DNA of 64,000 nucleotides from Escherichia coli O127:H6 str. E2348/69 (lineage in GTDB: Bacteria; Pseudomonadota; Gammaproteobacteria; Enterobacterales; Enterobacteriaceae). Position 1 is the stretch's first letter. Each line of letters starts with the position of its first letter. Shown here piece after piece: positions 14,401-17,400 of this stretch. Position numbers: made by a program. The DNA lies in NCBI RefSeq assembly GCF_000026545.1, contig NC_011601.1. One strand, given 5' to 3'.

Positions 14401-17400
14401 TATTTTGCAAAAACCAAAGAAGACGCCACCCGCTACATTTTACAGGTTGCCCAACGCAAAAATGCCCGGAAGGTAGTGAAATCTAAATCGATGGTGACCG
14501 AAGAGATTGGTGTCAATCATGTGTTGCAGGATGCCGGGATTCAGGTGATTGAAACCGATCTGGGTGAATACATTCTCCAGCTGGATCAAGATCCGCCCTC
14601 TCATGTTGTGGTCCCGGCAATTCATAAAGATCGCCATCAGATCCGTCGAGTGCTACACGAACGTCTGGGCTATGAGGGGCCGGAAACGCCTGAAGCGATG
14701 ACCTTATTCATTCGGCAAAAAATCCGCGAAGATTTCCTCAGTGTTGAAATAGGTATTACCGGCTGTAATTTCGCGGTGGCAGAGACCGGTTCGGTATGCC
14801 TGGTGACCAATGAAGGTAATGCGCGAATGTGTACCACGCTGCCTAAAACGCATATTGCAGTGATGGGAATGGAGCGTATTGCTCCCACGTTTGCAGAGGT
14901 AGATGTATTGATCACCATGCTGGCGCGCAGTGCCGTTGGTGCACGTTTGACGGGATACAACACCTGGCTGACAGGACCGCGCGAAGCGGGGCACGTTGAT
15001 GGTCCTGAAGAGTTTCATCTGGTTATTGTCGATAACGGGCGTTCTGAGGTGCTGGCCTCTGAATTTCGGGATGTGCTGCGCTGTATTCGTTGCGGGGCTT
15101 GTATGAATACTTGTCCGGCATATCGCCATATTGGCGGTCATGGATATGGCTCTATTTATCCAGGGCCAATTGGTGCGGTGATTTCCCCGTTACTTGGCGG
15201 CTATAAAGATTTTAAAGATTTACCCTACGCCTGCTCTTTATGCACCGCTTGTGACAGCGTGTGTCCGGTGCGTATTCCGCTGTCAAAACTGATTTTGCGT
15301 CATCGTCGGGTGATGGCTGAAAAAGGGATCACCGCAAAAGCAGAGCAACGGGCGATAAAAATGTTCGCTTATGCCAATAGTCATCCAGGATTGTGGAAAG
15401 TCGGGATGATGGCTGGTGCTCATGCGGCAAGCTGGTTTATCAATGGCGGCAAAACACCACTCAAATTTGGCGCGATTAGCGACTGGATGGAAGCACGCGA
15501 TCTTCCTGAAGCTGACGGAGAGAGTTTCCGTAGTTGGTTTAAGAAACATCAGGCGCAGGAGAAAAAGAATGGATAATCGGAGCGAATTTTTGAATAACGT
15601 TGCTCAGGCACTGGGTCGCCCGCTGCGACTTGAACCGCAAGCAGAAGATGCGCCGCTTAACAACTATGCTAACGAGCGGCTTACCCAACTTACCCAACAG
15701 CAGCGCTGTGACGCGTTTATCCAGTTTGCCAGCGATGTTATGTTGACGCGCTGTGAACTGACCAGCGAGGCGAAGGCGGCAGAAGCTGCAATACGTCTGT
15801 GTAAAGAGCTGGGAGATCAGTCGGTCGTGATTAGTGGTGACACGAGGCTGGAGGAATTGGGGATTAGCGAACGTTTGCAGCAGGAATGCAATGCCGTTGT
15901 TTGGGATCCGGCGAAAGGTATTGAGAACATATCACAAGCAGAGCAGGCTAAAGTGGGCGTCGTATATGCTGAATATGGTTTAACCGAATCGGGAGGCGTG
16001 GTTCTTTTTTCCGCCGCCGGGCGCGGGCGTTCATTGAGCCTGCTCCCGGAATCTTCTCTTTTTATCCTGCGTAAAAGCACAATCCTGCCGCGTGTAGCGC
16101 AACTCGCAGAAAAATTGCATCAGAAAGCGCAGGCCGGTGAACGAATGCCGTCATGTATTAACATCATCAGTGGTCCCAGTTCAACGGCGGACATTGAGCT
16201 TATCAAAGTCGTCGGGGTTCATGGTCCGGTGAAAGCGGTGTATCTGATTATTGAGGATTGCTGAGAGAGATATGTAGTCTGGACATAAACCTGAAGGCGG
16301 TATACGAGGTTGTGAATAGCGTTAAGGACAACCTGACTTAACCCCGTTCCGTCATGGTTATGCTGCTCTTCTGTAAATATCCTGACATTAATAATGCCAG
16401 GATATTTACAGTGAAAAAGACAGGAATCCATTCCTGAAGACGGGCTCCCTTCCCGGTCATTGTCACTATAGTTTTATACAGGCACTCTCTGTCAGAATGC
16501 TGTTTATTACTGCCCAGAGTTTTGTTGGTATTCATCTACCATTTTTTTGACAAGGCAAAACATTACAGAAATCACAATACTTAGAAAAAATCCCAGAGCC
16601 AGGCAAATGGCAGCAGGGTATTTATTTTTTATTTCTGGTGAGCTTATAGTGACACAGCCATCACCGTTCGGATACAATGACCAGTTCCTGGTCAGGTATA
16701 TCATTTTTGTATAAAGCTCACTGTTAATTGCTGAAGGCGTTTGTATCTCATCGAGAACTTGCCTGCCATTATGGTATTCTGACGCATACCATTTGATGGT
16801 AGACGCCTGCACGCGAGATATTTCCGCTTCAGCAGTTGGTAAATCTCTCTTATCTCCTGACCATTCCAGCTTTATTTCTCTGTTATACAGAAACAACAGC
16901 ACCATTGCCATACAGATAGCTATAATAAAAAGGATAATACGAATCTTTTTCTTCAGATAAAATAAAATCTCAATCAGATCGATATCCTGTTTTATTTGTT
17001 CATTCATAATATATCCAGAAAATGAAATCTGTCGCAGATAATATTGTATTAATAGTCTGTATCAGGAATGTTCGGGTTAAATATCAACGAAAAACCAGAA
17101 TCATGAATACTGGATATGAAGCATGAGAGTTACCTCAGTGTTTTATATAAGGATTCGGTCCTCATAGTAGAACGGTAACTCTCAATCTGATCGGTTCCTG
17201 AGTCAGTTCACATCACGACTCATTTTTTCGCTCTCACCGGCATCCCATTTGCCACAAAATATCCCGCCGTGCTCCTCGGCAACGCTTCCTTCCCACGAAT
17301 CATATCCGCTATTTTCTCGCCAATCATAATCGTCGTGGCGTTCAAATTGCCGGTGATAATTTGCGGCATAATTGACGCATCCACCACGCGCAGGCCTTCC

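What the first reader, a model, noticed from the sequence alone, without database searches (positions are those of the whole stretch)
16371..16411. Perfect 14-bp stem-loop in the ykgG/ykgH convergent gap without a terminator T-tract
ctgtaaatatcctg-N13-caggatatttacag is a perfect inverted repeat, unlikely by chance. It is not a REP element (wrong consensus) and has no flanking U-run, so it is not a canonical intrinsic terminator. It could be a protein-binding palindrome, an RNase processing or stabilising hairpin, or a remnant of a small mobile element end.
Basis: seen in the sequence. Interest (0 to 1): 0.3.

Follow-up and report, generated by a model that had tools for sequence, protein, structure and literature searches.

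The report
Orphan palindrome between ykgG and ykgH
A real, non-random 41-base palindrome sits where two converging E. coli genes end; it is not a terminator, a repeat-family member or a mobile-element end, and is most likely an ordinary RNA-protecting hairpin or a functionless leftover next to the true ykgH terminator.

Summary
Window 16371-16411 has 14-bp perfect arms that extend to 20+1+20. At least 1,365 E. coli genomes carry a perfect 41-bp palindrome. It folds at -20.6 (+ strand) and -25.1 (- strand) kcal/mol as RNA; no shuffle came close. It is single-copy, present in 5,141 of 5,426 complete E. coli genomes, absent from sister Escherichia clades, and matches no Rfam, REP, plasmid or phage family.

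On the - strand, a small hairpin plus UCUUUUU lies directly upstream. Published K-12 Term-seq puts a strong 3' end on the last U, 2 nt before the palindrome. That RNA is the ykgH 3'UTR, a RIL-seq candidate Hfq-bound sRNA. A diverged ykgH paralog keeps this terminator but has no palindrome.

So the palindrome is transcribed only by ykgG read-through (no intrinsic terminator found; bicyclomycin-sensitive Rho-dependent regions lie on both strands) or by leakage past the ykgH terminator. The best reading is a U-tract-less, exonuclease-blocking 3' stem-loop, at confidence about 0.35. No mapped 3' end, covariation or excess conservation supports it, so a neutral palindrome is nearly as likely. Interest is low.

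The parts
16371..16411 (.). 41-bp palindrome. The outer 14-bp arms are perfect. The centre (16385-16397) is variable, and the window allele has one A/C mismatch. The palindrome is perfect (20+1+20) in the allele CTGTAAATATCCTGGCATTAGTAATGCCAGGATATTTACAG.
   Evidence: RNA -20.6/-25.1 kcal/mol; DNA; alleles; 1,365 records with the perfect form; 1,873 records with the K-12 form.
16385..16397 (.). Polymorphic apex of the palindrome. All four differences between the major haplotypes fall here (16385, 16386, 16391, 16392).
   Evidence: There are no compensatory double changes.
16421..16436 (-). Small terminator hairpin of ykgH (CAGGAAUGGAUUCCUG), the stem that precedes the U-tract.
   Evidence: terminator-like site. 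One search shows it conserved, with its U-tract, in the diverged paralog locus L164.
16412..16420 (-). U-tract UCUUUUUCA of the ykgH terminator. The K-12 Term-seq 3' end at 324603 corresponds to window 16414 (last U), 2 nt before the palindrome.
   Evidence: Adams et al. 2021 supplementary file 1: 324603, - strand, scores 43,492 and 126,276. Coordinate mapping.
16441..16455 (-). Upstream hairpin of the ykgH 3'UTR (CGGGAAGGGAGCCCG on the - strand).
   Evidence: L164 has a hairpin-capable stretch of different sequence at the same place.
16412..16506 (-). ykgH 3'UTR, a candidate Hfq-associated 3'UTR-derived sRNA. It does not include the palindrome.
   Evidence: (Melamed 2016 PMC5145812; Bar 2021 PMC8175672: RIL-seq candidate with RNA-seq read accumulation, but two northern probes failed).
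16265..16370 (+). Untranslated stretch downstream of the ykgG stop, with no intrinsic terminator before the palindrome.
   Evidence: One search found no + strand terminator-like site in 15900-17300. One search lists a bicyclomycin-sensitive Rho region on the + strand at K-12 324913.
15569..16264 (+). ykgG (LutC/YkgG family), last gene of ykgEFG.
16507..17007 (-). ykgH, a 166-aa allele with a 168-bp in-frame deletion relative to K-12.

Best explanation
The element is a single-copy, E. coli-specific palindrome placed exactly at the tail-to-tail junction of the ykgEFG and ykgH transcription units. It is not itself a terminator.

The ykgH-side RNA ends at an ordinary small hairpin plus U-tract, 2 nt before the palindrome (shown in K-12 by published Term-seq). 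The palindrome is therefore transcribed only in two situations. One is polymerase coming from ykgG, which has no detectable intrinsic terminator and reads on toward a Rho-dependent region. The other is the minority of polymerases that leak through the ykgH terminator and are then stopped by Rho.

In either RNA it folds into a 19-bp hairpin with no U tail. I infer that it acts as a barrier to 3'-to-5' exonucleases (PNPase, RNase II). This would fix and stabilise the mature 3' end of those Rho-terminated RNAs and keep the two converging RNAs from overlapping.

Shown: the structure, its position, the neighbouring 3' end, and the Rho sensitivity of the region. Inferred: the exonuclease-barrier role.
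For: The hairpin is very stable on both strands, and no shuffle matches it.

No U-run follows it, and no + strand terminator-like site exists between the ykgG stop and 17300.

Adams et al. 2021 list bicyclomycin-sensitive Rho termination regions at K-12 324913 (+ strand, score 6.7, p = 2e-23) and 324578 (- strand, score 3.5) (method).

Dar & Sorek 2018 report that Rho-dependent E. coli transcripts end immediately downstream of stable stem-loops not followed by U-rich sequence, that these protect against PNPase and RNase II, and that rut sites lie just downstream.

The sequence just downstream of the palindrome is C-over-G biased. On the - strand C:G is 1.5 over the first 200 nt and reaches 2.7 at 16290-16211; on the + strand it is 1.3 over the first 80 nt.

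The - strand 3' end at 324603 and the + strand edge of the stem at 324600 abut, so stem-trimmed RNAs from the two strands would not overlap.

Substitutions among the major haplotypes fall only in the apex (4 of 4 in the central 13 nt; my post hoc estimate is p about 0.01). This fits a stem that actually forms.
Against: The published Term-seq lists contain no + strand 3' end anywhere in 3245xx-3249xx, and no - strand end just below the stem. ykgEFG may simply be too weakly expressed in those media.

The + strand Rho region is called about 310 nt beyond the hairpin. This suggests that many + strand 3' ends lie further downstream, although resolution is limited by the 800-nt windows.

There is no covariation: 14 of 19 pairs never vary and none has a change on both sides.

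The outer arms are not significantly more conserved than the rest of the gap: 2 of 28 sites segregate versus 29 of 208.

The palindrome is missing from 285 of 5,426 genomes, through IS-associated rearrangements in both genomes I inspected (an IS3-family element with deletion, and an IS1 inserted inside the right arm).

It is absent from sister Escherichia clades and from the ykgH paralog locus.
Confidence: 0.35

Rival explanations
1. The palindrome is neutral and has no function. It arose at the DNA level, for example by template switching that perfected a quasi-palindrome, or as a leftover terminator of a lost neighbour. It sits in AT-rich, lineage-specific DNA and has simply not decayed yet. 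The variable apex would reflect higher mutability of the hairpin tip.
For: The overall substitution density in the palindrome (4 of 41 between the window and K-12) equals that of the surrounding gap (about 7.5%).

The arms show no excess conservation and no compensatory change.

Transitions make a wobble on one strand and a mismatch on the other, with no consistent strand preference. The window allele favours the - strand and the K-12 allele favours the + strand.

No transcript end maps to it.

The segment is E. coli-specific, AT-rich (GC 0.39-0.44) and dispensable.
Against: A 41-bp perfect palindrome cannot arise by chance, and it remains perfect or nearly so across haplotypes that differ by 7-14% in the flanks. 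All major-haplotype changes avoid the outer 28 nt.
Confidence: 0.3
2. The palindrome is a retroregulatory or RNase III processing site. Only read-through RNA contains it. On the - strand the palindrome plus the flanking UCUUU/AAGAG pairing forms a duplex of about 24 bp that RNase III could cut. This would destroy read-through transcripts while correctly terminated ykgH 3'UTR RNA is spared, in the manner of lambda sib.
For: The - strand fold extends the 19-bp stem by 5 further pairs across a 3-nt bulge, using the U-tract (76-nt fold). The mapped 3' end lies just before the palindrome, so terminated and read-through RNAs differ exactly by this structure. No stable - strand end is reported below the stem.
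Against: There are no RNase III data for this site. Nineteen base pairs is at the lower limit for RNase III (established knowledge, not tested here). No sequence conservation beyond E. coli is available to test it.
Confidence: 0.1
3. The palindrome is a DNA site for a dimeric protein: a regulator, a roadblock or a nucleoid protein.
For: The common allele has perfect dyad symmetry over 41 bp, more than an RNA hairpin needs.

The same window holds a 21-bp-arm perfect palindrome directly upstream of frmR, where a long palindrome lies in a promoter region. That it is the FrmR operator is my recollection, not tested here.

Genomic SELEX reported an RpoE-holoenzyme peak in the ykgG/ykgH convergent spacer at old coordinate 323832, about 324608 in current coordinates.

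The centre TGGCAT-N5-ATGCC resembles a sigma-54 GG-N10-GC element (read directly from the sequence).
Against: It lies between two gene ends, and no promoter-like site was found in the gap.

The main text of the sigma-54 ChIP-seq and RpoN SELEX papers has no ykgG/ykgH entry.

The polymorphisms hit the GG and GC positions of the sigma-54-like core in the window and K-12 alleles.

The palindrome is far longer than typical operators.
Confidence: 0.1
4. The palindrome is a remnant of the end of a small mobile element (MITE, IS200/IS605-like hairpin end or similar).
For: It lies about 100 bp inside the left edge of a segment (16274 to about 23200) that cryptic Escherichia clades lack.

A fragment of the 5' end of an ISSod13-family IS lies 700 bp away at 17118-17215.

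The 846-bp ykgH piece is flanked by a 9-bp direct repeat, GATATGAAG, in K-12.

IS1 and IS3-family insertions occur at or near it in some strains.
Against: There is exactly one locus per genome in 5,141 genomes.

The only full-length plasmid matches are Escherichia records, most with ykgH annotated under the match, and phages gave no match to the palindrome region.

The two edges of the segment share no repeat.

The metagenome scan returned the E. coli locus plus about 14 unrelated loci with different flanks and GC content, as expected by chance among the many hairpins in a huge collection.

There is no Rfam match.
Confidence: 0.05

Closest known systems
U-tract-less protective stem-loops at the 3' ends of Rho-dependent E. 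coli transcripts (Dar & Sorek 2018, PMC6061677)
   Same: A very stable stem-loop with no U-rich tail, located downstream of a gene without an intrinsic terminator, in a region with bicyclomycin-sensitive read-through on both strands, and with mildly C-rich sequence downstream.
   Different: No steady-state 3' end has been mapped just after this stem. It is much longer and more perfect (19-20 bp, AT-rich) than needed. It is palindromic enough to work on both strands.
Intrinsic (Rho-independent) terminators, including the bidirectional terminators of convergent gene pairs (Ju et al. 2019; cited, features recalled from memory)
   Same: A hairpin in a convergent intergenic gap. The real ykgH terminator lies directly beside it.
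   Different: No U-tract follows it on either strand. The flanks have the opposite polarity: pyrimidine/U-rich 5' and A-rich 3' on the + strand. The stem is AT-rich. The mapped 3' end is upstream of it, not downstream.
REP/BIME elements
   Same: An extragenic palindrome located after gene ends that could stabilise upstream mRNA.
   Different: REPs are GC-rich and present in hundreds of copies. This element is AT-rich (about 34% GC) and strictly single-copy.
Lambda sib retroregulator (RNase III hairpin formed only in read-through RNA; established knowledge)
   Same: A long hairpin that exists only in RNA that has passed a terminator lying at its 5' edge. The extended duplex reaches RNase III size.
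   Different: No RNase III evidence exists. In sib the terminator hairpin is part of the structure, whereas here the terminator is a separate small hairpin.
Long palindromic operator-like sequence upstream of frmR in the same window (57417-57469)
   Same: A perfect long inverted repeat, single-copy and conserved in E. coli.
   Different: That palindrome sits in a promoter region directly upstream of the regulator gene. This one sits between two gene ends with no promoter.

Membership tests
Intrinsic terminator | Stem-loop followed within 0-2 nt by a U-rich tract | tested here: not met
   The + strand tail is TGAAAAAGA and the - strand tail is AAGAGCAGC. The terminator scan does not call it on either strand.
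Intrinsic terminator | RNA 3' end mapped in the U-tract after the stem | tested here: not met
   The only Term-seq 3' end in the gap (K-12 324603, - strand) lies 2 nt upstream of the palindrome, after the small hairpin.
Bidirectional terminator | Hairpin flanked by an A-tract 5' and a U-tract 3', so that both strands see hairpin plus U-tract | tested here: not met
   The flanks are CTCTT 5' and TGAAAAAGA 3' on the + strand, which is the reverse polarity.
Protective 3' stem-loop of Rho-dependent transcripts | Energetically stable stem-loop not followed by U-rich sequence | tested here: met
   -20.6 and -25.1 kcal/mol, z = -7 to -9. No U-run follows.
Protective 3' stem-loop of Rho-dependent transcripts | Transcription through it ends by Rho action downstream | tested here: inconclusive
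   Bicyclomycin-sensitive regions are reported at 324913 (+ strand) and 324578 (- strand) in K-12, but with 800-nt windows.
Protective 3' stem-loop of Rho-dependent transcripts | Steady-state 3' end immediately downstream of the stem | tested here: inconclusive
   None is listed in Adams et al. 2021.
Protective 3' stem-loop of Rho-dependent transcripts | C-rich, G-poor rut region just downstream | tested here: inconclusive
   C:G is 1.3 over the first 80 nt on the + strand. On the - strand it is 1.5 over the first 200 nt, with a peak of 2.7. The window background is 0.94.
REP/BIME | Many dispersed copies per genome with a GC-rich consensus | tested here: not met
   Two BLAST places per genome, which are the two strands of one locus, in 5,141 genomes. 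The sequence is AT-rich.
MITE / IS terminal hairpin | Multiple copies, or a partner end with terminal repeats and a target duplication | tested here: not met
   Single-copy. No repeat is shared between the segment edges. No plasmid or phage copies. Metagenome hits are unrelated loci.
Any Rfam RNA family | Covariance-model match at or near the gathering score | tested here: not met
   The best hits are eukaryotic miRNA models at 17-22 bits against gathering scores of 70-100.
Structured RNA under selection | Compensatory base-pair changes across relatives | tested here: not met
   0 of 19 pairs have changes on both sides and 14 never vary. The depth is limited to E. coli haplotypes.
Transcription-factor operator | Dyad symmetry within or next to a promoter, with evidence of binding | tested here: inconclusive
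   The dyad symmetry is present. No promoter-like site was found in the gap. The main text of the sigma-54 ChIP/SELEX papers has no ykgG/ykgH entry. An in-vitro RpoE-holoenzyme SELEX peak falls in the spacer.

The most novel reading that the evidence does not exclude
The palindrome is a dedicated junction element that works with the weak ykgH terminator. Only read-through RNA contains it, and there it pairs with the U-tract to build an RNase III-size duplex. It would then act as a sib-like retroregulator and two-way insulator. In that role it would set the level of the Hfq-associated ykgH 3'UTR RNA and prevent sense/antisense overlap with ykgEFG.
Probability: 0.1. Interest if true: 0.5.

Novelty: new member of a known kind. 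Interest (0 to 1): 0.2.

Why it matters
If the hairpin does protect or insulate RNA ends, it would add one more example to a known class and would help define the 3' boundary of the poorly studied ykgEFG (lutABC-like) operon.

Its more practical value is contextual. It marks the exact end of the ykgH 3'UTR RNA, a RIL-seq sRNA candidate that two northern probes failed to detect. It also shows that the candidate ends at a conserved hairpin plus U-tract module shared with a diverged paralog.

Nothing here challenges current understanding.

Tried and rejected
- **Repeat family.** BLAST of the 59-nt core and of the 97-nt left flank against 5,426 E. coli genomes found one locus per genome. Rejected.
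- **Plasmids and phages.** No copy of the palindrome. The only dispersed matches are to an IS fragment at 17115-17210.
- **Metagenome and viral pattern scans.** These gave 74 and 1 hits. After clustering, the non-E. coli hits are about 14 unrelated loci, including one abundant freshwater locus seen in about 40 samples. I judge them coincidental, because hairpins are so numerous in that collection.
- **Rfam.** Only noise.
- **Covariation and conservation tests.** Uninformative, neither supporting nor refuting function.
- **Sigma-54 promoter reading of the centre.** No support in the main text of two genome-wide studies, and the core is broken in the window and K-12 alleles.
- **RpoE promoter in the spacer.** By eye I found no match with correct spacing. 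The SELEX peak remains unexplained.
- **Coding explanation.** A 65-aa - strand ORF spans the palindrome and is intact in all haplotypes. It carries many amino-acid changes, has no Pfam hit, and would be cut off by the mapped RNA 3' end. Rejected as a gene.
- **Comparative route through ykgH homologues.** ykgH is essentially an E. coli ORFan. Loci L165 and L166 looked divergent but show systematic G-to-A conversion, so they are a sequencing artefact. L118 and L157 are chimeric contigs; L118 starts with an Illumina adapter.
- **Other 3'-end datasets.** Supplementary tables of other Term-seq, SEnd-seq and Rend-seq papers were not held, so + strand 3' ends could not be checked further.
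Full report
**Observation**

The symmetry goes further than reported: the arms extend to 20 nt each around a single central base, with one mismatch in this strain.

As RNA it folds into a 14+4-bp hairpin on the + strand (-20.6 kcal/mol) and a continuous 19-bp hairpin on the - strand (-25.1 kcal/mol). None of 200 shuffles folded as well on either strand. As DNA the values are -13.8 to -19.1 kcal/mol.

Shuffles of the whole window never gave a perfect stem longer than 11 bp. The real window contains only one other stem of 14 bp or more, upstream of frmR. The palindrome is therefore real and not a chance event.

**Setting**

The window is E. coli but not K-12. The 242-bp gap is 100% identical to strain RM14723 and 92% identical to K-12.
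- ykgG ends at 16264 on the + strand.
- A 166-aa allele of ykgH ends at 16507 on the - strand. It has a 168-bp in-frame deletion relative to K-12.
- Window coordinate = K-12 coordinate minus 308,189 in this gap. The palindrome is K-12 324560-324600.

**Distribution**

The core occurs at one locus per genome in 5,141 of 5,426 complete E. coli genomes. BLAST reports two places per genome, which are the two strands of the same palindrome. The left flank is likewise single-copy.

Three main alleles differ only in the central 13 nt:
- GCATTAGTAATGC, a perfect 41-bp palindrome; the exact 59-mer occurs in 1,365 records.
- GTATTACCAATGC, the K-12 type, in 1,873 records.
- ACATTAATAATGC, this window.

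In the two palindrome-disrupted genomes I examined, an IS element was responsible. One has an IS3-family element with a deletion, and the other has an IS1 inserted inside the right arm.

Sister Escherichia lineages (Escherichia sp. E1V33, E. whittamii and a divergent 'E. coli' species representative) share ykgEFG, but homology stops about 10 bp after the ykgG stop. In two of them it resumes only beyond betT, so the whole segment from 16274 to about 23200 is lineage-specific. The stretch is AT-rich.

No plasmid or phage carries the palindrome. Rfam has no match. A pattern scan of metagenomes returned the E. coli locus plus about 14 unrelated loci that merely share the 11-nt arm. It is therefore not a REP, a MITE or any dispersed family.

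On the - strand, directly upstream of the palindrome, lies a small hairpin (16436-16421) followed by UCUUUUUCA. The scan flags this as terminator-like.

The K-12 Term-seq tables of Adams et al. 2021 list a strong 3' end at 324603 on the - strand, with scores of 43,492 and 126,276 in two conditions. The printed sequence and my coordinate check place it on the last U of that tract, 2 nt before the palindrome.

This RNA is the ykgH 3'UTR.
- RIL-seq singled it out as a putative Hfq-associated 3'UTR-derived sRNA with a target motif (Melamed 2016).
- Bar et al. 2021 ranked it highly and saw RNA-seq reads accumulate there, but could not detect it with two northern probes. Both probes lie upstream of the palindrome.

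ykgH itself is an E. coli ORFan with many length variants. One diverged paralog locus, next to hyxB, still carries a homologous 3'UTR. It has a hairpin-capable stretch of different sequence at the upstream-hairpin position, then the CAGGAA..UCCUG hairpin and a U6 tract. Homology ends at the U-tract and no palindrome follows.

The palindrome is therefore outside the ykgH transcription unit.

**Mechanism**

Because no U-tract follows the palindrome on either strand, it cannot be a canonical terminator. Its flanks have the opposite polarity to a bidirectional terminator.

It is transcribed by polymerase leaving ykgG, for which no intrinsic terminator is found. It is also transcribed by polymerase that leaks through the ykgH terminator.

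Adams et al. report bicyclomycin-sensitive Rho termination regions on both strands here, at 324913 (+ strand, score 6.7) and 324578 (- strand, score 3.5). These come from 800-nt windows, so the positions are coarse.

Dar & Sorek 2018 showed that Rho-terminated E. coli RNAs end just after stable stem-loops lacking a U tail. These block PNPase and RNase II, and rut sites lie just beyond them. The palindrome fits that description, and the downstream sequence is moderately C-over-G biased.

My best explanation, at about 0.35, is that it is such a protective and insulating 3' stem-loop. The neat abutment of the - strand end (324603) and the + strand stem edge (324600) fits this, but it is inference.

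**Weaknesses and rivals**

- No 3' end just after the stem is listed on either strand.
- There is no covariation.
- The outer arms are not significantly more conserved than the gap: 2 of 28 sites segregate versus 29 of 208.
- The two common mismatched alleles favour opposite strands.

A neutral palindrome, made by a DNA-level process and not yet decayed, is nearly as likely (0.3). The clustering of all major-haplotype changes in the apex is compatible with either view.

A sib-like RNase III site is possible at about 0.1. The - strand fold recruits the U-tract into a duplex of about 24 bp.

A protein-binding site is also possible at about 0.1. Its support is the perfect dyad, a sigma-54-like centre and an in-vitro RpoE-holoenzyme SELEX peak in the spacer. 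Against it, no promoter was found in the gap, and the main text of two genome-wide sigma-54 studies has no entry for these genes.

The mobile-element-end idea is essentially excluded (0.05).

**Verdict**

This is a genuine, unannotated, single-copy palindrome of modest interest. It is not a terminator and not a repeat element. It is probably an ordinary member of the U-less 3' stem-loop class, or functionless. The more useful result is the exact anatomy of the neighbouring ykgH terminator and its Hfq-associated 3'UTR RNA.

Noticed in passing
window 16412-16506 (- strand): The ykgH 3'UTR is a published RIL-seq candidate Hfq-bound sRNA. Its K-12 3' end (324603) maps to window 16414. A diverged paralog locus (L164 1150-1212) has a hairpin-capable stretch of different sequence at the upstream-hairpin position and keeps the second hairpin and U-tract. 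This argues that the 3'UTR module is real even though northern blots failed.
   Followed up: partly
window 17118-17215: About 100 nt between ykgH and betA is homologous to the upstream end and first codons of an ISSod13-family transposase gene. It matches phage RCS47 (L088 1500-1600) and about 259 plasmids of many genera at 80-90%. E. whittamii keeps this fragment directly after ykgG (L007 3190-3350).
   Followed up: partly
window 16268-16278 and 17112-17120: A 9-bp direct repeat, GATATGAAG, brackets the 846-bp piece that carries the palindrome and ykgH. In this window the left copy reads GATATGTAG. E. whittamii has a single diverged copy at the junction. This is compatible with either an insertion with target duplication or a deletion between short repeats. 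No terminal inverted repeats were seen.
   Followed up: partly
window 16507-17007: ykgH in this strain lacks 168 bp in frame relative to K-12 (166 versus 222 aa). The protein database holds many length variants (about 166-228 aa) restricted to E. coli. There are only sub-threshold Wzz-like and holin-like Pfam hits. A strong sigma-70-like promoter, GCGACA-16-TATATT, at 17035-17008 matches the one listed for ykgH by Shimada 2014.
   Followed up: partly
window 57417-57469: A perfect inverted repeat with 21-bp arms (ATATACTATAGGGGGGTATGC, 11-nt spacer) lies directly upstream of frmR. It is single-copy in 5,415 of 5,426 genomes. It looks like the FrmR operator region (my recollection, not tested).
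   Followed up: partly
window 23153-23184: A 12-bp perfect GC-rich stem (AAACCGCGCCAT/ATGGCGCGGTTT) lies just after betT. It is flanked by A-rich sequence upstream and TTTCTCTT downstream, so it is a probable betT terminator.
   Followed up: no
window about 16419 (K-12 about 324608; old coordinate 323832): Genomic SELEX (Shimada 2017) lists an RpoE-holoenzyme binding peak in the ykgG/ykgH convergent spacer (intensity 5.6). I found no convincing RpoE promoter by eye. This remains unexplained.
   Followed up: partly
window 16293-16312; L118 1-40: The gap sequence GAAG(A/G)(A/C)GG(C/T)ATACGAGGTTG resembles the Illumina P7 adapter (CAAGCAGAAGACGGCATACGAGAT). Metagenome contig L118 is an adapter/E. 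coli chimera joined at this similarity. Its other end, like that of L157, joins unrelated DNA right after the palindrome.
   Followed up: partly
L165 and L166 (Logan SRR27475577/8): These contigs of the ykgH locus show systematic G-to-A changes (for example GGGAAGGGA to AAAAAAAAA). That points to converted or damaged reads rather than a divergent lineage. Both contigs also break inside the palindrome.
   Followed up: no
window 15900-19600: Divergence from K-12 rises from about 1-2% to 5-10% per 100 bp across the ykgG 3' end, ykgH and betA/betB. This suggests a recombined haplotype block around the palindrome.
   Followed up: no
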